Source: Escherichia coli
GTDB taxonomy: Bacteria; Pseudomonadota; Gammaproteobacteria; Enterobacterales; Enterobacteriaceae
DNA length: 64,000 nucleotides
Strand: one strand, 5' to 3'
Assembly: GCF_003019035.1 (NCBI RefSeq)
Contig: NZ_CP027447.1
Shown: piece after piece, positions 20,369 through 61,989 of the stretch
Layout of the letters: each line of letters opens with the position of its first letter
Numbering within the stretch: the first letter of the stretch is position 1
Translations under genes and position numbers: made by a program
The notes under the pieces: model-generated
What the model was told of the DNA's origin: nothing
Seen by the model: only the letters and a program-made list of their open reading frames with translations
Database searches by the model: none

Positions 20369-20445
<77 letters not shown>

Positions 20446-20487
20446 AATTTGCACCGCAAATTTGAAGAGGTTTTAACTACATGTTAT

Positions 20488-20563
20488 GGGGCTATAGCTC
20501 AGCTGGGAGAGCGCCTGCTTTGCACGCAGGAGGTCTGCGGTTCGATCCCGCATAGCTCCACCA
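20488..20563 (+). tRNA. alaV: tRNA-Ala (UGC) in 16S-23S spacer
   Basis: GGGGCTATAGCTCAGCTGGGAGAGCGCCTGCTTTGCACGCAGGAGG...CTCCACCA, 76 nt. Confidence 0.95.
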
Positions 20564-23913: not shown

Positions 23914-23990
23914 GGAGCGGTAGTTCAGTCGGTTAGAATACCTGCCTGTCACGCAGGGGGTCGCGGGTTCGAGTCCCGTCCGTTCCGCCA
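23914..23990 (+). tRNA. aspU: tRNA-Asp (GUC) distal to 5S
   Basis: GGAGCGGTAGTTCAGTCGGTTAGAATACCTGCCTGTCACGCAGGGGGTCGCGGGTTCGAGTCCCGTCCGTTCCGCCA, 77 nt. Confidence 0.95.
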
Positions 23991-32136: not shown

Positions 32137-32213
32137 GGAGCGGTAGTTCAGTCGGTTAGAATACCTGCCTGTCACGCAGGGGGTCGCGGGTTCGAGTCCC
32201 GTCCGTTCCGCCA
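32137..32213 (+). tRNA. aspV: tRNA-Asp (GUC), stand-alone copy; left boundary of accessory island
   Basis: 77 nt, identical to the rrn-distal tRNA-Asp at 23914-23990. Confidence 0.95.
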
Positions 32214-32243
32214 CTATTCACTCATAAAAATGAGTTCAGAGAG

Positions 32244-32273
32244 CCGCAAGATTTTTAATTTTGCGGTTTTTTT
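32244..32273 (+). terminator. Terminator after aspV
   Basis: CCGCAAGATTTTTAATTTTGCGG hairpin followed by TTTTTTT. Confidence 0.5.
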
Positions 32274-32540
32274 GTATTTGAATTCCACCATTTCTCTGTT
32301 CAATGATTTTACTCTGGCGTAAGTGCGTGATTCTCGCTTGTTGTCTCATTCATTAAAATTCAATAATGATATCGAACCATTCAGCTTAAATATATTTCCA
32401 GAGAATAAATTTATATTGATTAAATGAATGTATATTTCAAATTGATTTTGTTTGTTATTATTTAAGTGAGGTATATAATTAGAGTCCGTTATCAATGCTA
32501 AATATTCTAATCATTATGACAGGCGAGGGAGTGTCCAATT

Positions 32541-33326
32541 ATGAATTCAAAAAAGCTTTGTTGCATATGTGTGTTATTCTCGCTGCTTGCAGGATGTGCC
32601 TCTGAATCTTCTATTGATGAAAAGAAGAAAAAAGCTCAAGTCACACAAAGTAATATTAATAAAAACACTCCCCAGCAACTGACAGACAAAGATTTATTCG
32701 GTAATGAAACCACTCTGGCCGTATCCGAGGAGGATATTCAAGCTGCGCTTGATGGAAATGAGTTCCGCGTTCCCCTTAATTCTCCTGTAATACTTGTTCA
32801 ATCCGGCAACCGCGCACCGGAAACCATTATGCAGGAGGAGATGCGAAAATATTATACTGTTTCCACATTCTCTGGTATCCCGGACAGGCAAAAGCCTCTG
32901 ACTTGTAACAAAAACAAAGATAAAAATGAGAACGAGGATGTTGCCAGTGCTGAAAATATGAACTGGATGCAGGCATTGCGTTTTGTGGCTGCGAAAGGGC
33001 ATCAGAAAGCGATTATTGTTTACCATGATACGTTGCAGACAGGAAAATATGACACTGCACTGAAATCAACAGTATGGTCCGACTATAAAAATGACAAACT
33101 CACTGACGCTATCTCCCTGCGCTACCTGGTACGTTTCACGCTGGTGGATGTGGCAACAGGTGAGTGGGCTACCTGGTCGCCGGTGAATTATGAATATAAA
33201 GTGCTTCCACCATTGCCCGACAAGAATGAAGCCAGTACGACTGATATGACAGAGCAGCAAATCATGCAACTTAAGCAAAAGACCTATAAAGCGATGGTAA
33301 AAGATTTGGTTAACCGCTATCAATAA
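32541..33326 (+). CDS. yafT: Lipoprotein YafT-like, unknown function
   Basis: 261-aa ORF, lipobox LLAGCAS, AT-rich gene preceded by a very AT-rich 330-bp region. Confidence 0.75.
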
Positions 33327-52495: not shown

Positions 52496-53971
52496 TTACT
52501 CCCTGTCTAACCGGCCAACCAGGGAAAGCTCAAAGTTTGCCCCCATAAATTTAAAATGGGGCCGCACGCTCAGCGCGACCTGGTACCAGCCGGGTTCGCC
52601 TTCCACATCCATAACCTCAACTTTGGCAGCGCGCAGAGGTTTACGGCTGCGCACGTCCGCAGGCGGGTTTTCCTGGTCGGCAACATACTGACGGATCCAG
52701 GTATTAAGCTCTCTTTCTAAGTCGCTCCTTTCTTTCCATGACCCCAGTTGTTCACGCTGCAACACCTTGATGTAGTGCGCTAACCGGTTGATGATGAAGA
52801 GATAAGGAAGCTGCGTACCCAGCTTATAGTTGGTTTCTGCGTCTTTGCCCGGAAAGTGCTTCGGTTTTTGTACCGAGTTTGCAGAGAAAAAGGCTGCATT
52901 ATCAGAGTCTTTACGCATGGTAAGGGTGATAAAACCCTCTTCAGCCAGTTCAAATTCGCGGCGATCGGTGACCAGCACCTCGGTTGGGATTTTGGCCTGA
53001 ATCTGACCCATCGTTTCGAACAGATGCACCGGCAGATCTTTCACTGCGCCGCCGCTTTGCGGACCGATGATATTTGGACACCAGCGGTATTTGGCAAAAC
53101 TGTCTGCGACATTGCACGCCAGCATCCAGGCCGTATTACCCCACAGATAATCTTCGTGGTTCCGGCTGACATCTTCGTGATAGTTAAAGTTCTTAACAGG
53201 GTTATCTGTTGGTGAATAAGGCTGGCGAAGCAGGAAGCGGGGTGCCGTAAGCCCTAAATAGCGCGAATCTTCCGAGTCACGCAGGGCGCGCCATTTGGTG
53301 TAGGCCGGACCTTCAAAGATGGCATAAAGATCTTTGATATTAGGCAGTTCGGTCCACGAGTTCAGCCCCATAAATTCCGGGGAAACGGAGGACAGGAACG
53401 GTGCGTGCGCCATTGCGCCCACGGCACTGACGTATTGCAGCAGTTTCATGTCAGGCGCGGTATTTTTGAACTCATAAGCGCCCAGCACGGCAGCGATGGG
53501 TTCACCGCCAAACTGTCCGAAACCGGACGAATAAACGTGCTTATAAAATCCGGACTGAATAATTTCTGGCGCAAACTCAAAGTCTTCCAGAAGTTCCTGC
53601 TTGGTGACATGAAGCACGTTGACCTTGATGTTTTCACGGAAATCAACGCGATCCACCATTGTTTTCAGTGAGCGCCAGAACGACTCGACCTGCTGAAAGG
53701 CAGGCGCATGGATGATGACATCCATCTGGCGGCTGATGCGTTCATCAATATCTGCAATCATGCTGTCCACGGCCAGTTTATTGACCGGTTCGGCAGATGC
53801 AGTGGATTGCAGGATGCTGGCAATAAAGGCTGTCACACCCTGGCGGGCAACGTCATAACCTTCCGAACCGGGCTGAATACGGGTCTGTGCCATGATTTGA
53901 TCAAGCAGCGACGATGCCTGCTCAGGCTGCCCGGCATGACTGGAAACGAGTTCCTCTTCCTGTAAAGACAT
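52496..53971 (-). CDS. tssC: T6SS contractile sheath large subunit TssC (VipB)
   Basis: 491-aa ORF with conserved TssC core. Confidence 0.93.
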   Translation of the reverse strand: MSLQEEELVSSHAGQPEQASSLLDQIMAQTRIQPGSEGYDVARQGVTAFIASILQSTASAEPVNKLAVDSMIADIDERISRQMDVIIHAPAFQQVESFWRSLKTMVDRVDFRENIKVNVLHVTKQELLEDFEFAPEIIQSGFYKHVYSSGFGQFGGEPIAAVLGAYEFKNTAPDMKLLQYVSAVGAMAHAPFLSSVSPEFMGLNSWTELPNIKDLYAIFEGPAYTKWRALRDSEDSRYLGLTAPRFLLRQPYSPTDNPVKNFNYHEDVSRNHEDYLWGNTAWMLACNVADSFAKYRWCPNIIGPQSGGAVKDLPVHLFETMGQIQAKIPTEVLVTDRREFELAEEGFITLTMRKDSDNAAFFSANSVQKPKHFPGKDAETNYKLGTQLPYLFIINRLAHYIKVLQREQLGSWKERSDLERELNTWIRQYVADQENPPADVRSRKPLRAAKVEVMDVEGEPGWYQVALSVRPHFKFMGANFELSLVGRLDRE

Positions 53972-54021
53972 ACTGAAAATCCTTCTGTTTTAGCTGTGTT
54001 TCTGAAACCGGCTTTTCGCCA

Positions 54022-54246
54022 TCAGTGAAGTACGCGCTGCCAGTGCGACGCGCTCTGCTGAAACTCACAAAAATGGATAATCTCATCCAATAGATCACTG
54101 ATACGGCGATCCAGTGTTGTAATCAGCGCAGCCACACCATCCTGGTTGATTTCAACGGACGGGCTGAAACATACCTGGTAAACCACCTGCAGAATGTCTG
54201 CAACAGAGAGGTGGTATGTCCCGGAGATATTTTTGTGTGCCGTCAT
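54022..54246 (-). other. Short ORF (74 aa) resembling the N-terminal segment of TssC; possible gene fragment
   Basis: ...VAALITTLDRRISDLLDEIIHFCEFQQSASHWQRVL aligns by eye (about 40% identity) with TssC residues ...VDSMIADIDERISRQMDVIIHAPAFQQVESFWRSL. Confidence 0.3.
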
Positions 54247-54280
54247 GCCTGGATAACCCTGTTTAATGAAATAGTGGTGG

Positions 54281-54781
54281 TTATTTATTGCTCACCCGGC
54301 CGATTTCTTTGAGCAACTGCTCGCGGGACTCCTCATTTTCCAACAATGCCTGGAGCTGGGTACGGAATGCCGGAAGGTTACCCATCGGCCCCTTCAGTGC
54401 AGTCAGTGCTTCACGCAGTTCCAGCAATTTATTCACTTCCGGAACCTGCCGGGCCACGCTATCTGGTGAAAAATCATCCAGTGATTTGATATTCAGCGCC
54501 ACATTCAGTTCATCGTCTGTTGTGCTTCCCTTCAGCGTGGCGGGGACAGTAAAATTGAGGCCAATGGCTGCTTCAGCCATCACTGCACCGAAATTGTGCT
54601 TGTTAACGGAAACTGCCTGACGTTCATCCAGTGGGGATGTTTCCTGCGTATTTCCGGTATCGCCGACAACGAGCATGTTAAGCGGAAGTTCCACTTCAGC
54701 CGTCTGGCCATCTGTTTTTGGGACATACGATATATTAATACGCTCGCGAGGCGCGACGCTGCCTTCAAATTTTTTGCTCAT
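54281..54781 (-). CDS. tssB: T6SS contractile sheath small subunit TssB (VipA)
   Basis: 166-aa ORF MSKKFEGSVAPRERINISYVPKTDGQTAEVELPLNMLVVGD... Confidence 0.9.
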   Translation of the reverse strand: MSKKFEGSVAPRERINISYVPKTDGQTAEVELPLNMLVVGDTGNTQETSPLDERQAVSVNKHNFGAVMAEAAIGLNFTVPATLKGSTTDDELNVALNIKSLDDFSPDSVARQVPEVNKLLELREALTALKGPMGNLPAFRTQLQALLENEESREQLLKEIGRVSNK

Positions 54782-55165
54782 AAAAGTGATCCGTCATGTT
54801 ATCTCGTACAGGCCATGAACACGGCATATTTGTACCGAAAAAAAATATCGGCAATGCCGCCCTAATGGCGGTGAAAATAAAATCACCACTCCTTCATCAC
54901 CCCGCATTCTACGCTTCAAAATAAATAAGAAAAGGACTTTTTATCGATCGTAAAGAGGGGTATTCTGCAAGCGTTAAATAGATTGTGTGAACCTGTGCAA
55001 TTCGCGCCAGGTGTATTATGGCAATAATTTAAATATAGAGCTTTTATGTAACTTATTGAATTATATAATAATTTCATTAAACATAAGCTAATCTGATGAT
55101 TGCTTGTTTATATATTTGTTTTGTGATTGATTAAGTGGGTATTTTTAAGGAATATCTCAAAAATT

Positions 55166-55186
55166 ATCAAAATGATAATTCAGAAA
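55166..55186. promoter_or_regulatory. Weak Fur-box-like sequence in the tssB/hcp divergent control region
   Basis: AATGATAAT core matches the central 9 nt of the Fur consensus GATAATGATAATCATTATC; about 11/19 overall. Confidence 0.25.
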
Positions 55187-55477
55187 GGATAAATACAATA
55201 TTTATTCATGATTCAGCTTTGGCCATTTTATGGAGGCAATACGGACTTTGAACAGTTGGGTATGGTTATCCAGATATATATTATTAACTTATTGCTGAAT
55301 AAGAGATTTAATGATTTTAAAAATAGTTTTTACGACAACCGTAAATTCTAGCTCGGTTTGTATGTAAAAAATACTGAAAAATGATGCGGTTCCGTGAAGT
55401 GAGCTGCATCTGCCTGTCTGGGATTAACGGCAGGTCATTGTAAGTAGTAATTAACCACGTTAACAAGGAGTTTACAA

Positions 55478-56205: not shown

Positions 56206-58314
56206 ATGTCAACCGGATTACGTTTCACGCTGGAAGTGGACGGCCTGCCACCGGACGCGTTTGCGGTGGTCTCCTTTCATCTGAACCAGTCACTCTCTTC
56301 GCTCTTTTCCCTCGATCTCTCTCTGGTCAGCCAGCAGTTTCTCTCCCTTGAATTTGCGCAGGTGCTGGACAAAATGGCCTACCTGACGGTATGGCAGGGC
56401 GATGACGTACAGCGCCGGGTGAAAGGTGTGGTGACCTGGTTTGAACTGGGGGAGAACGACAAAAACCAGATGCTGTACAGCATGAAGGTGTGCCCACCGC
56501 TGTGGCGCACAGGGCTGCGCCAGAACTTCCGTATCTTCCAGAATGAGGACATCGAAAGCATACTCGCGACGATCCTGAAAGAAAACGGGGTGACCGAGTG
56601 GAGTCCGCTGTTCAGCGAGCCGCATCCTTCCCGTGAGTTTTGTGTCCAGTACGGCGAAACCGATTACGATTTCCTGTGCCGGATGGCGGCGGAGGAAGGC
56701 ATCTTCTTTTATGAGGAGCACGCGCAAAAAAGTACCGACCAGAGCCTGGTCCTGTGCGACACCGTGCGTTATCTGCCGGAGTCCTTTGAGATCCCCTGGA
56801 ATCCGAACACCCGTACCGAGGTGAGCACCCTATGCATCAGCCAGTTCCTCTACAGCGCACAAATCCGCCCATCTTCCGTGGTGACCAAAGACTACACCTT
56901 TAAACGACCCGGCTGGGCAGGGCGTTTTGATCAGGAAGGCCAGCACCAGGATTACCAGCGCACACAGTATGAAGTGTATGACTACCCCGGACGTTTCAAG
57001 GGTGCCCACGGGCAGAACTTTGCCTGCTGGCAGATGGATGGCTGGCGAAACAACGCAGAAGTGGCGCGCGGAACAAGCCGTTCGCCGGAGATATGGCCGG
57101 GACGGCGAATTGCGCTGACGGGGCATCCGCAGGCGAACCTGAACCGGGAATGGCAGGTGGTGGCAAGTGAACTGCACGGCGAGCAGCCGCAGGCGGTGCC
57201 GGGACGCAGTGGTTCAGGTACCACGCTGAATAACCACTTTGCGGTAATACCGGCAGACAGAACATGGCGGCCACAGCCGTTGCTGAAACCGCTGGTGGAC
57301 GGCCCGCAGAGCGCCGTCGTGACGGGACCGGCAGGAGAAGAAATCTTCTGTGATGAACATGGCCGCGTGCGGGTGAAATTTAACTGGGACCGTTATAACC
57401 CGTCAAACCAGGACAGTTCATGCTGGATCCGTGTGGCACAGGCGTGGGCAGGCACCGGGTTTGGTAACCTGGCGATACCGCGTGTGGGTCAGGAGGTCAT
57501 TGTGGACTTCCTCAACGGCGATCCGGACCAGCCGATTATTATGGGGCGCACCTACCACCAGGAAAACCGCACCCCCGGCAGCCTGCCGGGAACAAAGACG
57601 CAAATGACCATTCGTTCAAAAACCTATAAGGGCAGCGGGTTTAATGAACTGAAGTTTGACGATGCGACAGGGAAAGAACAGGTCTACATCCACGCGCAGA
57701 AGAACATGAACACCGAGGTGCTGAATAACCGCACCACAGATGTGATAAACAACCATGCTGAGACCATCGGCAACAATCAGGTGATTGCGGTTACCAACAA
57801 TCAGATACAGACGGTGGGCGTTAACCAGATAGAGACGGTGGGCAGTAACCAGATCATTAAAGTGGGCTCTGTTCAGGTGGAAACGATTGGACTTGTTCGT
57901 GCGCTGACTGTGGGCGTGGCGTATCAGACGACGGTAGGTGGCATTATGAACACCTCGGTGGCCCTGATGCAGTCCTCGCAGATCGGTTTGCATAAATCGT
58001 TGATGGTCGGGCTGGGTTATGACGTCAAAGTCGGAAATAACGTTACCTTCACCGTTGGTAAAACGAAAAAGGATGATACCGGGCAGACCGCGATTTACTC
58101 CGCCGGTGAGCATCTGGAACTCTGCTGTGGTAAGGCAAGGCTGGTGCTGACTAAGGACGGACAAATTTTTCTCAACGGCACAAAAATTCATTTGCAGGGT
58201 AAGGAGCAGGTTAATGGTGACTCACTGTTGATTAACTGGAACTGTGCAGCCTCGAAATCCCCACCGAAGACCCCTGATGAAAAGCAGGATACGCCGGATA
58301 TGAGAGAGTACTGA
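56206..58314 (+). CDS. vgrG: T6SS spike protein VgrG (TssI)
   Basis: 702-aa ORF, N-terminus MSTGLRFTLEVDGLPPDAFAVVSFHLNQSLSSLFSLDLSLVSQQ, beta-helix repeat region (TVGVNQIETVGSNQIIKVGSVQVETIG). Confidence 0.93.
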   Translation: MSTGLRFTLEVDGLPPDAFAVVSFHLNQSLSSLFSLDLSLVSQQFLSLEFAQVLDKMAYLTVWQGDDVQRRVKGVVTWFELGENDKNQMLYSMKVCPPLWRTGLRQNFRIFQNEDIESILATILKENGVTEWSPLFSEPHPSREFCVQYGETDYDFLCRMAAEEGIFFYEEHAQKSTDQSLVLCDTVRYLPESFEIPWNPNTRTEVSTLCISQFLYSAQIRPSSVVTKDYTFKRPGWAGRFDQEGQHQDYQRTQYEVYDYPGRFKGAHGQNFACWQMDGWRNNAEVARGTSRSPEIWPGRRIALTGHPQANLNREWQVVASELHGEQPQAVPGRSGSGTTLNNHFAVIPADRTWRPQPLLKPLVDGPQSAVVTGPAGEEIFCDEHGRVRVKFNWDRYNPSNQDSSCWIRVAQAWAGTGFGNLAIPRVGQEVIVDFLNGDPDQPIIMGRTYHQENRTPGSLPGTKTQMTIRSKTYKGSGFNELKFDDATGKEQVYIHAQKNMNTEVLNNRTTDVINNHAETIGNNQVIAVTNNQIQTVGVNQIETVGSNQIIKVGSVQVETIGLVRALTVGVAYQTTVGGIMNTSVALMQSSQIGLHKSLMVGLGYDVKVGNNVTFTVGKTKKDDTGQTAIYSAGEHLELCCGKARLVLTKDGQIFLNGTKIHLQGKEQVNGDSLLINWNCAASKSPPKTPDEKQDTPDMREY

Positions 58315-58380: not shown

Positions 58381-61300
58381 ATGAGCGGAAAACCGGCGGC
58401 GCGTCAGGGAGATATGACCCAGTATGGCGGTCCCATTGTCCAGGGTTCGGCAGGTGTAAGAATTGGCGCGCCCACCGGCGTGGCCTGTTCAGTGTGCCCG
58501 GGCGGAGTCACTTCCGGCAACCCGGTAAACCCGCTGCTGGGAGCGAAGGTGCTGCCCGGTGAGACGGATGTTGCGCTGCCCGGTCCGCTGCCGTTCATTC
58601 TCTCCCGCACCTACAGCAGCTACCGGACCCGGACGCCTGCACCGGTGGGCGTTTTCGGCCCCGGCTGGAAAGCGCCTTCTGATATCCGCTTACAGCTACG
58701 TGATGACGGACTGATACTCAACGACAACGGCGGGCGGAGCATTCACTTTGAGCCGCTGCTGCCGGGGGAGGCGGTGTACAGCCGCAGCGAGTCAATGTGG
58801 CTGGTGCGTGGCGGTAAGGCAACGCAGCCGGACGGCCACACGCTGGCACGGCTGTGGGCGTCGCTGCCGCCGGATATCCGGTTAAGCCCGCATCTTTACC
58901 TGGCGACCAACAGCGCACAGGGGCCGTGGTGGATACTCGGCTGGTCAGAGCGGGTGCCGGGTACTGAGGACGTACTGCCAGCGCCGCTGCCGCCGTACCG
59001 GGTGCTTACCGGGCTGGCGGACCGCTTCGGGCAGACGCTGACGTACCGGCGTGAGGCCGCCGGTGACCTGGCCGGGGAAATCACCGGCGTGACGGACGGT
59101 GCCGGGCGGAAGTTCCGTCTGGTGCTGACCACACAGGCGCAGCGGGCGGAAGAGGCCCGTAAACAGCACACCGCTTCCTTATCTTCCCCTGACACCCCCC
59201 GCCCTCTTTCAGACTCAGCTTTCCCCGACACACTGCCCGGTACGGAATACGGCCCCGACAGGGGTATCCGCCTTTCGGCGGTGTGGCTGATGCACGACCC
59301 GGCATACCCGGAAAGCCTGCCCGGTGCGCCACTGGCGCGGTACACGTATACGGAAGCCGGTGAACTGCTGGCGGTATATGACCGCAGCAATACGCAGGTG
59401 CGCGCTTTCACGTATGACGTGCAGCACCCGGGCCGGATGGTGGGGCACCGTTATGCGGGAAGGCCGGAGATGCGCTACCGCTACGACAATACCGGGCGGG
59501 TGGTGGAGCAGCTGAACCCGGCAGGGTTAAGCTATCGCTATCTTTATGAGCAGGACCGCATCACCATCACGGACAGCCTGAACCGGCGAGAGGTGCTGCA
59601 TACAGAAGGCGGGGCCGGGCTGAAGCGGGTGGTGAAAAAAGAACTGGCGGACGGCAGCGTCACGCACAGCGGGTATGACGCGGCAGGAAGGCTCACGGCA
59701 CAGACGGACGCGGCGGGACGGCAGACAGAGTACGGTCTGAATGTGGTGTCAGGCGATATCACGGACATCACCACGCCGGACGGGCGGGAGACGAAATTTT
59801 ACTATAACGACGGGAACCAGGTGACGGCAGTGGTGTCCCCGGACGGGCTGGAGAGCCGCCGGGCGTATGATGAGCGGGACAGGCTGGTAACGGAGACATC
59901 GCGCAGTGGGGACGTCATCCGGTATGCTTATGATAATCCGCACAGTGAATTACCGGCCACGACAACAGATGCGACGGGCAGCACCCGGCAGATGACCTGG
60001 AGCCGCTACGGGCAGTTGCTGGCGTTCACCGACTGCTCGGGCTACCAGACCCGCTATGAGTACGACCGCTTCGGCCAGATGACGGCGGTCCACCGCGAGG
60101 AAGGCATCAGCCTTTACCGCCGCTATGACAACCGTGGCCGGTTAACCTCGGTGAAAGACGCACAGGCCCGTGAAACGCAGTATGAGTACAACGCCGCAGG
60201 CGACCTGACTGCCGTTATCACCCCGGATGGCAACCGGAGTGAGACACAGTACGATGGGTGGGGAAAGGCCATCAGCACCACGCAGGGCGGGCTGACGCGC
60301 AGTATGGAGTACGATGCTGCCGGACGTATCACCACGCTGACTAACGAGAACGGCAGCCACAGCGACTTTAGTTACGATGCGCTGGACCGCCTGATACAGC
60401 AGGGCGGCTTTGACGGGCGGACGCAACGTTATCATTATGACCTGACCGGAAAACTCACGCAGAGTGAAGATGAGGGGCTTGTCATCCTCTGGTACTACGA
60501 TGAATCGGACCGTATTACTCACCGCACGGTAAACGGTGAACCGGCAGAACAGTGGCGGTATGACGGCCACGGCTGGCTGAGAGAAATCAGCCACCTGAGC
60601 GAAGGCCACCGTGTTGCCGTCCACTATGGCTATGATAATAAAGGCCGCCTGACCAGTGAGCGCCAGACGGTGCATCACCCGGAGACGGGAGAGCTGCTCT
60701 GGCAGCATGAGACCGGACATGCGTACAACGAACAGGGGCTGGCAAACCGCGTCACGCCGGACAGTCTGCCGCCGGTGGAGTGGCTGACCTATGGTAGCGG
60801 TTATCTGGCAGGCATGAAGCTGGGCGGGACGCCGCTGCTGGAGTTCACGCGCGACCGCCTGCACCGTGAGACGGTGCGCAGCTTCGGCAGCATGGCAGGC
60901 AGTAATGCCGCATACGAACTGACCAGCACATACACCCCTGCAGGCCAGTTACAGAGTCAGCACCTGAACAGCCTGGTGTATGACCGTGACTACGGGTGGA
61001 ATGACAACGGAGACCTGGTGCGCATCAGCGGCCCGCGACAGACGCGGGAATACGGCTACAGCGCCACGGGCAGGCTGGAGAGTGTGCGCACCCTCGCACC
61101 GGACCTGGACATCCGCATCCCGTATGCCACGGACCCGGCGGGCAACCGGCTGCCGGACCCGGAGCTGCACCCGGACAGTACACTCACAGTGTGGCCGGAT
61201 AACCGCATCGCGGAGGATGCGCACTATGTCTACCGCCACGATGAATACGGCAGGCTGACGGAGAAGACGGACCGCATCCCGGCGGGTGTGATACGGACGG

Positions 61301-61989
61301 ACGACGAGCGGACCCACCACTACCACTACGACAGCCAGCACCGCCTGGTGTTCTACACGCGGATACAGCATGGCGAGCCACTGGTCGAGAGCCGCTACGT
61401 CTACGACCCGCAGGGACGGCGAATGGCGAAACGGGTATGGCGGCGGGAGCGTGACCTGACGGGGTGGATGTCGCTGTCGCGTAAACCGGAGGTGACGTGG
61501 TACGGCTGGGACGGCGACCACCTGACGACGGTGCAGACCGACAGCACACGTATCCAGACGGTATACGAGCCGGGAAGCTTCACACCGCTCATCCGCATCG
61601 AAACAGACAACGGCGAGCGGGAGAAAACGCAGCGGCGGAGCCTGGCGGAGAAGCTCCAGCAGGAAGGGAGCGAGGACGGACACGGTGTGGTGTTCCCGGC
61701 TGAACTGGTGAGGATGCTGGACAGGCTGGAGGAAGAAATCCGGGCAGACCGCGTGAGCGGTGAAAGCCGGACGTGGCTTGCACAGTGCGGGCTGGCGGTG
61801 GAGCAACTGGAAAAACAGGTGGAGCCGGAATACACGCCGGAACGCACACTGCATCTTTACCACTGCGACCATCGGGGACTGCCGCTGGCGCTTATCAGCG
61901 AAGACGGCAATACGGTGTGGAGCGCGGAGTATGATGAATGGGGAAACCTGCTTAATGAGGAGAACCCGCATCATGTGTATCAGTCATAG
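58381..61989 (+). CDS. rhs: PAAR-domain Rhs protein, core region, terminated by in-frame TAG
   Basis: 1202-aa ORF; N-terminal PAAR-like region ([42 protein letters not shown]) then YD/RHS repeats; ends ...[11 protein letters not shown] at TAG 61987-61989. Confidence 0.9.

What the first reader, a model, noticed from the sequence alone, without database searches (positions are those of the whole stretch)
53972..54280. TssC-N-terminus-like fragment ORF in a 310-bp gap between tssB and tssC
tssB and tssC are normally adjacent. Here a 310-bp spacer carries a 74-aa ORF whose C-terminal half resembles the N-terminal helix of TssC encoded just downstream (shared D-RIS, IIH, FQQ, W, L positions). That looks like a partial duplication or a remnant of a replaced tssC allele. 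It could be a recombination scar from sheath-gene exchange, or an expressed small protein that affects sheath assembly.
Basis: seen in the sequence. Interest (0 to 1): 0.45.

Follow-up and report, generated by a model that had tools for sequence, protein, structure and literature searches.

The report
Old tssC fragment between sheath genes
The 74-codon reading frame between the two sheath genes of this E. coli type VI secretion cluster is an ancient partial copy of the start of the large sheath gene; in Escherichia it now drifts like dead DNA, though related Salmonella/Citrobacter clusters may still translate it.

Summary
On the minus strand, tssB (54281-54781) and tssC (52496-53971) are separated by 309 bp. 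That spacer holds a 74-aa ORF (54022-54246). ORF residues 31-72 are homologous to TssC residues 61-102 (profile-profile E 6e-13; 0 of 2000 shuffles reach the observed score).

It is neither strain-specific nor a recent scar. The same spacer is present in 2226 of 5426 complete E. coli genomes, where RefSeq annotates it as a hypothetical protein. It also occurs in E. albertii, Salmonella, Citrobacter, Atlantibacter and Yokenella. These are exactly the loci whose TssC is at least 87% identical to this one. All more distant relatives have tssB and tssC 2-141 bp apart. The fragment scores best against the TssC of its own lineage. One ancient partial duplication of tssC is therefore the simplest origin.

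Between lineages the ORF shows a weak coding signature. In the Salmonella/Citrobacter group it keeps a strong ribosome-binding site and dN/dS of about 0.55. In Escherichia the ribosome-binding site is gone and dN/dS is about 1.3, against 0.03-0.09 for the flanking genes. Nonsense, frameshift and start-loss alleles also occur there.

Verdict: in this window the ORF is a drifting relic. A role as a small protein is not excluded in other genera. Interest is modest.

The parts
54281..54781 (-). tssB (small sheath subunit, 166 aa), upstream gene of the pair
   Evidence: TIGR03358 E 1.4e-50; annotated tssB in RefSeq relatives.
53972..54280 (-). 309-bp tssB-tssC spacer: 34 nt, then the 74-aa ORF, then 50 nt that carry the tssC ribosome-binding site
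   Evidence: The same spacer (290-316 bp) occurs only in loci whose TssC is at least 87% identical; other relatives have a 2-141 bp gap. No promoter-like or terminator-like site and no Rfam match inside it.
54022..54246 (-). 74-aa ORF (stop codon included), RefSeq hypothetical protein WP_000123970.1; presumably Z0263 of EDL933 (inferred from locus numbering)
   Evidence: Z0262 = vipB and Z0264 = tssB. Within Escherichia there are 22 non-synonymous, 5 synonymous and 1 nonsense change, giving omega ~1.3. The anti-SD duplex upstream of its ATG is -3.8 kcal/mol against a background mean of -2.7.
54031..54156 (-). TssC-homologous core of the ORF (residues 31-72: VEINQDGVAALITTLDRRISDLLDEIIHFCEFQQSASHWQRV)
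   Evidence: hhalign probability 97.9%, E 6.3e-13; profile against PDB TssC/VipB chains E 6e-5 to 1e-3; predicted long helix at residues 35-73.
53666..53791 (-). Parental segment in the intact tssC (codons 61-102: EPVNKLAVDSMIADIDERISRQMDVIIHAPAFQQVESFWRSL)
   Evidence: DNA identity of the two copies in this block is about 55%.
53980..53986 (-). Shine-Dalgarno sequence AGAAGGA of tssC; the last ~20 nt of the spacer match the whole tssB-tssC intergenic region of sister lineages
   Evidence: It is invariant in all spacer-bearing loci. Anti-SD duplex -5.5 kcal/mol.
52496..53971 (-). tssC (large sheath subunit, 491 aa), intact
   Evidence: TIGR03355 E 2e-211, full length; dN/dS 0.03-0.09.

Best explanation
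The ORF is an old partial paralogue of tssC. In the ancestor of one enterobacterial T6SS lineage (E. coli 'T6SS-2' at aspV, with its relatives in E. albertii, Salmonella, Citrobacter, Atlantibacter and Yokenella), a piece of the 5' part of tssC was duplicated just upstream of the gene. Codons ~61-102 of that piece are still recognisable. The copy has been inherited ever since, between tssB and tssC, inside the same transcript.

For much of that history it was kept open and weakly constrained as a coding sequence. It probably still is in the Salmonella/Citrobacter-type loci.

In Escherichia, including this window, it has lost its ribosome-binding site. It accumulates amino-acid changes at the neutral rate and is broken in some strains. 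Here it is most likely a non-functional, slowly decaying relic that gene callers still report as a hypothetical protein. The only part of the spacer under clear constraint in E. coli is its 3' end, which carries the tssC ribosome-binding site.

Shown: the homology, the phyletic distribution, the substitution patterns and the Shine-Dalgarno strengths. Inferred: a single duplication event, past translation and present lack of function.
For: Homology.

Single old origin:
- The spacer occurs only in loci with TssC at least 87% identical. Every sister locus (Rahnella, Buttiauxella, Yersinia, Trabulsiella, Halomonas and others) has a 2-141 bp gap.
- The last ~20 nt of the spacer equal the whole intergenic region of sister lineages.
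- The fragment profile scores best on its own lineage's TssC, and the score declines with distance.
- There is no own-versus-other excess of DNA identity, so no recent gene conversion.

Past coding constraint:
- In a DNA-aligned gap-free block, between-group pS is 0.55-0.89 against pN 0.29-0.37 in the ORF frame only. The two control frames show pS about equal to pN.
- Variable sites by codon position are 38/69, 32/69 and 50/68.
- The three between-group indels inside the ORF are -12, +6 and +6 nt.
- In a neutral simulation the ORF survives 60 substitutions with P = 0.046 and 100 substitutions with P = 0.007.
- The C group has 36 non-synonymous and 18 synonymous changes, omega ~0.55, P = 0.029 against neutrality. 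Its anti-SD duplex is -8.2 to -11.8 kcal/mol.

Relic status in Escherichia:
- Pairwise dN/dS is 0.9-1.5 against 0.03-0.09 for tssB and tssC.
- Variable sites by codon position are 11/12/5, against 6/4/28 for tssB and 5/4/54 for tssC.
- Parsimony counts give 22 non-synonymous, 5 synonymous and 1 nonsense change; the TssC-like part has 13 non-synonymous to 1 synonymous.
- The anti-SD duplex is -3.3 to -3.8 kcal/mol, against a background mean of -2.7.
- Broken alleles include W69* in strain WP4-S18-ESBL-07 and start loss plus frameshifts and stops in E. albertii NBRC 107761. Many frameshifted or truncated E. coli variants are in the protein database.
- An ORF still open after the 18-25 substitutions seen within Escherichia is expected by chance (P = 0.27-0.38).
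Against: - The ORF is intact and annotated in all 30 evenly sampled E. coli genomes and in most database clusters.
- The long-term coding signature and the C-group omega below 1 show that it was not junk for most of its history. Loss of function in Escherichia is therefore inferred from few substitutions (27 events) and essentially three haplotypes.
- Overall divergence of the ORF is somewhat lower than the synonymous divergence of the flanking genes. Some constraint at the nucleotide level is therefore not excluded.
- A weak Shine-Dalgarno sequence does not prevent translation by re-initiation 34 nt after the tssB stop.
- The duplication boundaries could not be demonstrated. Neither the first 30 codons nor the ~30 nt after the ORF match tssC or tssB significantly.
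Confidence: 0.6

Rival explanations
1. The ORF is a working small protein in E. coli too. It would be a free-standing copy of the first core helix of TssC, part of the T6SS-specific surface domain 3, which is built from N-terminal TssC helices and C-terminal TssB helices. It could bind free TssB or compete with TssC, and so tune sheath assembly or ClpV-dependent recycling.
For: - The ORF start, frame and stop have been kept across about 0.6 substitutions per site between lineages, which is improbable under neutrality.
- There is a frame-specific excess of synonymous change and the indels are in frame.
- The residues kept in all groups (L-D-x-R-I, L/M-D-E/G-I-I-H, F/Y-Q/R-Q, W-R/Q) are those conserved in real TssC.
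- AlphaFold predicts a helical hairpin with mean pLDDT 75.
- The Shine-Dalgarno sequence is strong and omega is ~0.55 in the Salmonella/Citrobacter group.
- The composition of domain 3 is taken from PMC4632598.
Against: - Within Escherichia omega is ~1.3 and the TssC-like part shows 13 non-synonymous to 1 synonymous change.
- There is no third-position bias and the Shine-Dalgarno sequence is at background strength.
- Disabling alleles occur in E. coli and E. albertii, C. youngae and Y. regensburgei.
- Even in the C group the constraint is five to six times weaker than on the flanking genes.
- No interaction or expression data exist.
Confidence: 0.2
2. What matters is the act of translation, not the product. 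Keeping ribosomes on the 309-nt stretch between tssB and tssC would prevent Rho-dependent polarity or mRNA decay from reaching tssC and the dozen downstream genes. Selection would then keep an open frame but care little about its amino acids.
For: - This reconciles long-term preservation of start, frame and stop and the in-frame indels with weak or absent constraint on the amino-acid sequence.
- The spacer has no terminator-like or promoter-like site, so it is read through as part of the operon.
- The mechanism itself is inference from general knowledge of Rho-dependent polarity.
Against: - The between-group pattern is not just stop avoidance. pN is half of pS in the ORF frame only.
- C. youngae carries a stop at codon 21 and E. 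albertii NBRC has lost the start codon, yet both keep an intact tssC next door.
- The Shine-Dalgarno sequence is lost in Escherichia.
- The spacer mRNA is not C-rich or G-poor (74 C, 73 G).
Confidence: 0.1
3. The spacer is kept for a cis-acting RNA or DNA element, such as a structure that sets the TssB:TssC translation ratio or a regulator-binding site. On this view the ORF is incidental.
For: - Spacer length is stable (290-316 bp) in all carriers, even where the frame is broken.
- Within Escherichia a 66-nt stretch has 2 variable sites where 8.2 are expected.
- The inverted repeat TGGAT-N6-ATCCA is kept in all groups.
- The MFE z-score is -1.8.
Against: - No Rfam family matches.
- The consensus structure is weak: -22 kcal/mol over 343 columns, with a covariation term of only -1.8.
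- The low-variation window is not significant after correcting for window choice (P = 0.058).
- The inverted repeat is simply the coding sequence of M/L-D-E-I-I-H and is also present in tssC.
- The codon-position signal between groups points to protein-level rather than RNA-level constraint.
Confidence: 0.06
4. The fragment is a scar of allele replacement. A foreign tssC (and downstream genes) would have been recombined in, leaving the 5' end of the resident tssC behind.
For: - This gives the same anatomy as a partial duplication: an old 5' piece, then a complete gene with its own ribosome-binding site.
- The two copies are only 34-38% identical in protein.
Against: - The fragment profile scores highest on its own lineage's TssC and the score falls with distance.
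- The fragment shares lineage-specific states (R-I in D-x-R-I-S, and I-I-H) with the resident TssC, not with sister lineages.
- TssB and TssC show parallel divergence from every outgroup.
- The event is ancient and single, not a recurrent exchange.
- With only about 42 alignable residues this cannot be excluded rigorously.
Confidence: 0.04

Closest known systems
TssC/VipB, the large subunit of the T6SS contractile sheath (TIGR03355; Pfam PF05943 + PF18945)
   Same: ORF residues 31-72 are homologous to TssC residues 61-102, the helix that opens PF05943. The same conserved residues are present (L-D-x-R-I-S, D-E-I-I-H, F-Q-Q, W-R). The ORF lies in a T6SS cluster directly next to tssC.
   Different: The ORF is 74 aa rather than ~490. 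It lacks the ClpV-binding N-terminal helix, the whole sheath core and the C-terminal domain. It scores 19 bits against the curated cutoff of 271.5. It cannot form a sheath subunit.
Gene remnants (partial-duplication pseudogenes) in bacterial operons
   Same: It is a partial copy of a neighbouring functional gene. In Escherichia it evolves at dN/dS of about 1. Several lineages carry disabling mutations. Annotation pipelines call it a hypothetical protein.
   Different: It is unusually long-lived, being shared by at least five genera. It has kept an open frame, in-frame indels and a codon-position signature over that time. In the Salmonella/Citrobacter group it has a strong Shine-Dalgarno sequence and omega of about 0.55, so it was probably a translated gene for most of its existence.
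Small T6SS accessory proteins that act on the sheath, such as TagJ/HsiE1, which binds the TssB N-terminus and ClpV in P. aeruginosa H1-T6SS (PMC4632598)
   Same: It is a non-essential small gene inside a T6SS cluster and could in principle contact a sheath subunit.
   Different: There is no sequence or fold relationship. No interaction or phenotype is known. This comparison is a functional analogy only and applies to the rival reading, not to the best explanation.

Membership tests
TssC/VipB sheath large subunit (TIGR03355 / PF05943 + PF18945) | Whole-protein score above the curated family cutoff | tested here: not met
   TIGR03355 scores 19.1 bits against the cutoff of 271.5. The neighbouring real TssC scores 702.9.
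TssC/VipB sheath large subunit (TIGR03355 / PF05943 + PF18945) | Full architecture: N-terminal ClpV-binding helix, PF05943 domain (301 positions) and PF18945 C-terminal domain | tested here: not met
   Only PF05943 model positions 2-33 of 301 are matched. hhalign covers TssC 61-102 only, and residues 1-30 of the ORF have no match.
TssC/VipB sheath large subunit (TIGR03355 / PF05943 + PF18945) | Significant sequence homology to TssC | tested here: met
   BLASTP E 2e-8; z = 11.3 against shuffles; hhalign E 6.3e-13; matches to PDB TssC/VipB chains at E 6e-5 to 1e-3.
Pseudogene / gene remnant | Partial copy of a functional parent gene | tested here: met
   The ORF covers about 42 of the 491 codons of the adjacent tssC.
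Pseudogene / gene remnant | Neutral substitution pattern (dN/dS about 1, no third-position excess) | tested here: inconclusive
   Met within Escherichia: omega 0.9-1.5 and codon-position counts 11/12/5. Not met in the Salmonella/Citrobacter group, where omega is ~0.55 with P = 0.029. Not met between groups, where pS exceeds pN in the ORF frame only.
Pseudogene / gene remnant | Disabling mutations in independent lineages | tested here: met
   - W69* in E. coli WP4-S18-ESBL-07.
- A stop at codon 21 in C. youngae.
- A frameshift plus a stop in Y. regensburgei.
- Start loss plus frameshifts in E. albertii NBRC 107761.
- An early stop in L011 and a lost stop in L012.

- Frameshifted E. coli variants in the protein database.
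Translated small protein (microprotein) gene | Ribosome-binding site at the start codon | tested here: not met
   In this window the anti-SD duplex is -3.8 kcal/mol, against a background mean of -2.7 and a 10th percentile of -6.0. Relatives do have a site: -8.2 to -11.8 in the C group and -6.4 to -8.4 in the T group.
Translated small protein (microprotein) gene | Purifying selection on the amino-acid sequence | tested here: not met
   Escherichia: 22 non-synonymous, 5 synonymous and 1 nonsense change, omega ~1.3. Selection is weakly met in the C group only.
Translated small protein (microprotein) gene | Direct evidence of translation (ribosome footprints, peptides) | not testable with these tools
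   No expression data are available here. T6SS-2 is reported to be repressed in vitro (abstract of PMC13141884).

The most novel reading that the evidence does not exclude
In the Salmonella/Citrobacter/Atlantibacter-type clusters, and ancestrally in Escherichia, the ORF encodes a genuine TssC-derived microprotein. It would be a stand-alone copy of a domain-3 helix that docks on the C-terminal helices of TssB, or on assembling sheath ends. It would modulate sheath polymerisation or ClpV-mediated recycling. That would make it a T6SS regulator born by partial duplication of a structural gene, and E. coli would be caught in the act of losing it.
Probability: 0.22. Interest if true: 0.6.

Novelty: new member of a known kind. 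Interest (0 to 1): 0.3.

Why it matters
For annotation: a 'hypothetical protein' present in about 40% of complete E. coli genomes, and listed among T6SS-associated genes (probably Z0263), can now be described as a TssC-derived fragment. In Escherichia it shows no sign of being under selection.

For T6SS biology: the fragment is a clean lineage marker for the enterobacterial T6SS-2-type cluster. It is also a rare example of a partial duplicate of a structural gene that stayed open for a long time.

If the product is functional in Salmonella or Citrobacter, it would be a new kind of sheath modulator. That is cheap to test with a start-codon mutant and a TssB interaction assay.

Otherwise the finding is an ordinary, if old, gene remnant.

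Tried and rejected
1. Duplication boundaries.
- I tested whether the ORF's ATG and upstream 22 nt are the old tssC start and intergenic region. Anchored identity was 7-12 of 27 nt downstream and 5-10 of 22 nt upstream, with a best P of about 0.05. This is not significant.
- I tested whether the ~30-50 nt after the ORF copy the tssB 3' end or tssC codons 103 onward. Scores were at shuffle level.
- A MAFFT alignment looked suggestive of both, so I do not claim either.

2. An alternative alignment of ORF residues 13-24 to the ClpV-binding helix of TssC (SLLDQIMAQ). hhalign and HMM searches do not support it.

3. Gene conversion by tssC as the cause of the coding-like pattern. Fragment blocks are no closer to their own tssC than to other tssC genes (0.49-0.59 in all comparisons).

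4. A structured RNA or known RNA family. There is no Rfam hit at E <= 1. The consensus fold is weak and the single-sequence z-score is -1.8.

5. An internal promoter or terminator in the spacer. None was found.

6. Fold search with the AlphaFold model. There were only non-specific helical hairpin matches, with no E <= 0.001.

7. Defence-system models (PADLOC). No hit.

8. Literature search for a described tssC fragment or pseudogene. No papers were found. EHEC T6SS papers name Z0262 as vipB and Z0264 as tssB but do not discuss the ORF between them.

9. The simple reading 'dead pseudogene everywhere'. I first favoured this from the within-Escherichia dN/dS. I revised it after the between-group and C-group analyses showed a coding signature.

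Full report
**What is there.**
All genes of this part of the window lie on the minus strand. tssB is 54281-54781 (166 aa) and tssC is 52496-53971 (491 aa). The 309 bp between them (53972-54280) hold one ORF of 74 codons, at 54022-54246. NCBIfam identifies the flanking genes unambiguously: TIGR03358 at E 1.4e-50 and TIGR03355 at E 2e-211. The locus is the E. coli T6SS island next to tRNA-Asp (aspV, 32137-32213) and yafT. The literature calls this cluster T6SS-2 (PMC7216683).

**Is the similarity real?**
Yes.
- BLASTP of the ORF against the downstream TssC gives 20/58 identities, E 2e-8.
- The Smith-Waterman score of 76 is 11.3 standard deviations above 2000 shuffles, and none of them reaches it.
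- Two curated profiles pick up the same segment: TIGR03355 at E 5e-4 and PF05943 model positions 2-33.
- A profile of the fragment family matches solved TssC/VipB chains at E 6e-5 to 1e-3.
- It also matches a panel of TssC proteins, down to E 5e-14.
- Profile-profile comparison gives 97.9% probability and E 6.3e-13 for ORF 31-72 against TssC 61-102.

At the DNA level the two copies are only about 55% identical. The first 30 residues of the ORF have no significant counterpart in TssC.

The matched TssC segment is not the extreme N-terminal ClpV-binding helix (VipB 15-28). It is the following helix, where the modelled VipB chain of 3J9G begins. According to the review PMC4632598, the N-terminal helices of VipB together with C-terminal helices of VipA form the T6SS-specific surface domain 3.

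**How widespread is it?**
The 451 bp around the spacer match 2267 of 5426 complete E. coli genomes, 2226 of them over at least 80% of the query. Identities range from 93% to 100%. In every sampled record RefSeq annotates a hypothetical protein between tssB and tssC, for example WP_000123970.1. EDL933 papers call vipB Z0262 and tssB Z0264. The ORF is therefore presumably Z0263, and no paper I found discusses it.

A scan of one genome per species with TssC as the query returned 68 loci. I measured the tssB-tssC gap in each.
- Loci whose TssC is at least 87% identical have a 290-316 bp spacer with the fragment. These are E. coli, E. albertii, Citrobacter youngae, Atlantibacter subterranea and Yokenella regensburgei. 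Additional Salmonella enterica and Citrobacter portucalensis loci were found through the protein searches.
- Every more distant relative has a gap of 2-141 bp, mostly 9-55 bp. These include Rahnella, Buttiauxella, Lonsdalea, Yersinia, Trabulsiella, Halomonas, Photobacterium and Helicobacter.

The carriers fall into three groups:
- E: Escherichia, 74 aa.
- C: Salmonella, Citrobacter, Atlantibacter and Yokenella, 70 aa.
- T: two metagenome-derived loci, 66 and 105 aa.

**Origin.**
The last ~20 nt of the spacer (AGAAGGATTTTCAGT-ATG) correspond to the entire tssB-tssC intergenic region of sister lineages. The intact tssC therefore kept its own translation start, and the extra DNA lies upstream of it.

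The fragment-family profile scores highest on the TssC of the carrier lineage (39.5-43.2 bits). It scores lower on the nearest sister lineages (33-37 bits) and lower still with distance. The fragment shares R-I (in D-x-R-I-S) and I-I-H with the carrier TssC, where sister lineages have K-L/I and I-L-H. TssB and TssC diverge in parallel from all outgroups.

The simplest history is one partial duplication of the resident tssC 5' region on the stem of this lineage. An alien-allele scar is not strictly excluded, because only 42 residues are alignable. The exact boundaries could not be shown. Resemblances of the ORF start to the tssC start, and of the post-ORF 30-50 nt to the tssB 3' end or to tssC codons 103 onward, are at chance level.

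**Is it a gene? Recent evolution in Escherichia says no.**
- Between the window and a 93%-identical E. coli allele, and between the window and E. albertii, dN/dS of the ORF is 1.5 and 0.9. For tssB and tssC it is 0.03-0.09.
- Variable sites by codon position are 11/12/5 in the ORF, against 6/4/28 for tssB and 5/4/54 for tssC.
- Parsimony counts give 22 non-synonymous, 5 synonymous and 1 nonsense change. The TssC-like part has 13 non-synonymous to 1 synonymous.
- Strain WP4-S18-ESBL-07 has W69*.
- The type strain of E. albertii has lost the start codon and carries several frameshifts and stops.
- The protein database holds many frameshifted or truncated E. coli versions.
- The sequence upstream of the ATG pairs with the anti-Shine-Dalgarno at -3.3 to -3.8 kcal/mol. 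That is background level: the mean is -2.7 and the 10th percentile is -6.0.
- That the frame is still open in most Escherichia is uninformative. After the 18-25 substitutions observed, a neutral sequence keeps start, frame and stop with P = 0.27-0.38.

**Deep evolution and the other genera say it was a gene.**
- Between the three groups, synonymous sites of the flanking genes are saturated (dS 1.4 to above 3). The ORF remains alignable at 54-60% nucleotide identity.
- In a DNA-aligned, gap-free block (codons 36-72), pS is 0.55-0.89 and pN is 0.29-0.37 in the ORF frame. The two other frames show pS about equal to pN.
- The fraction of variable sites is 38/69, 32/69 and 50/68 for codon positions 1, 2 and 3.
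- The three between-group indels inside the ORF are -12, +6 and +6 nt, whereas indels in the flanking spacer parts are not multiples of three.
- A neutral sequence would keep the ORF with P = 0.046 after 60 substitutions and P = 0.007 after 100.
- Gene conversion from tssC does not explain this, because there is no own-versus-other excess of identity.
- Within the C group, seven loci give 36 non-synonymous and 18 synonymous changes. Omega is ~0.55 (P = 0.029 against neutrality). It is 0.44 in the TssC-like part (P = 0.037) and 0.09 in the flanking genes.
- The C and T groups have strong Shine-Dalgarno sequences (GGGAG or GGGAGG, -6.4 to -11.8 kcal/mol), stronger than those of tssB and tssC.
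- Even so, C. youngae has a stop at codon 21 and Y. regensburgei has a frameshift and a stop. The ORF is therefore dispensable there as well.

**Other possibilities examined.**
- There is no promoter-like or terminator-like site in the spacer.
- No Rfam family matches.
- The consensus RNA structure is weak, with little covariation, and the single-sequence z-score is -1.8.
- AlphaFold predicts two helices (15-27 and 35-73, mean pLDDT 75). The fold search returned only generic hairpins.
- PADLOC found nothing.

**Conclusion.**
The event is ancient and lineage-wide. It is not a recent recombination scar.

The copy behaved as a weakly constrained, dispensable coding sequence for a long time, and it may still be translated in Salmonella/Citrobacter-type clusters. 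In Escherichia, and hence in this window, the evidence points to a relic. The ribosome-binding site is lost, change is neutral and broken alleles are present.

I put 0.6 on that reading. I put 0.2 on a still-functional TssC-mimicking microprotein and 0.1 on a 'translated spacer' that protects the operon from polarity. The remaining 0.1 is split between a cis-acting element and an allele-replacement scar.

The decisive experiments are translation evidence and start-codon mutants.

Noticed in passing
related proteins P0033, P0049, P0020; locus L004 4994-5080: Several deletion variants of the T6SS-2 cluster have an end point inside the small ORF.
- P0033 joins ORF residues 1-26 to the last ~74 residues of TssC (seen on 7 contigs).
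- P0049 joins the middle of TssB to the fragment's C-terminal half.
- E. coli PI6 has a deletion from inside the ORF to the FHA-domain gene (tagH).
- E. marmotae P0020 has an in-frame 16-aa deletion.
Whether the fragment/tssC repeat promotes these deletions was not examined.
   Followed up: no
window 54073-54090 (fragment) and the homologous codons of tssC (about 53708-53725): The codons for (L/M)-D-E/V-I-I-H form a short inverted repeat, TGGAT-N6-ATCCA. It is present in both tssC and the fragment and is retained in all three fragment groups. It is probably just a by-product of the conserved peptide, but it is the best-conserved stretch of the fragment.
   Followed up: partly
window 54782-55477: The 696-bp divergent intergenic region between tssB and the hcp-vgrG-rhs operon is only 33% G+C, against 51-52% for tssB and tssC. 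It contains several sigma-70-like matches. A 2026 paper describes a bidirectional promoter and H-NS repression for the T6SS in EHEC (PMC13141884, abstract only read).
   Followed up: no
window 32137-33326: tRNA-Asp (GTC) at 32137-32213, followed by yafT, marks the chromosomal border of the T6SS island. A second tRNA-Asp (23914-23990) and tRNA-Ile/Ala (20369-20563) lie in a stretch without long ORFs, which is presumably an rRNA operon (not checked).
   Followed up: no
locus L010 1767-2653: In this metagenome-assembled relative, tssC is cut to 234 aa and abuts a gene with a YafT domain, so most of the T6SS cluster has been deleted. The 70-aa fragment ORF next to it is still intact. Intactness of the ORF is therefore not tied to a working T6SS.
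   Followed up: no
locus L001 8307-12451 (E. coli SCU-301, identical to the window over the 451-bp query): In that strain RefSeq marks vgrG and the Rhs core gene as frameshifted or partial. The window has an uninterrupted 702-aa VgrG ORF (56206-58314) and a 1202-aa Rhs ORF (58381-61989). T6SS-2 effector genes therefore degenerate independently of the sheath genes.
   Followed up: no
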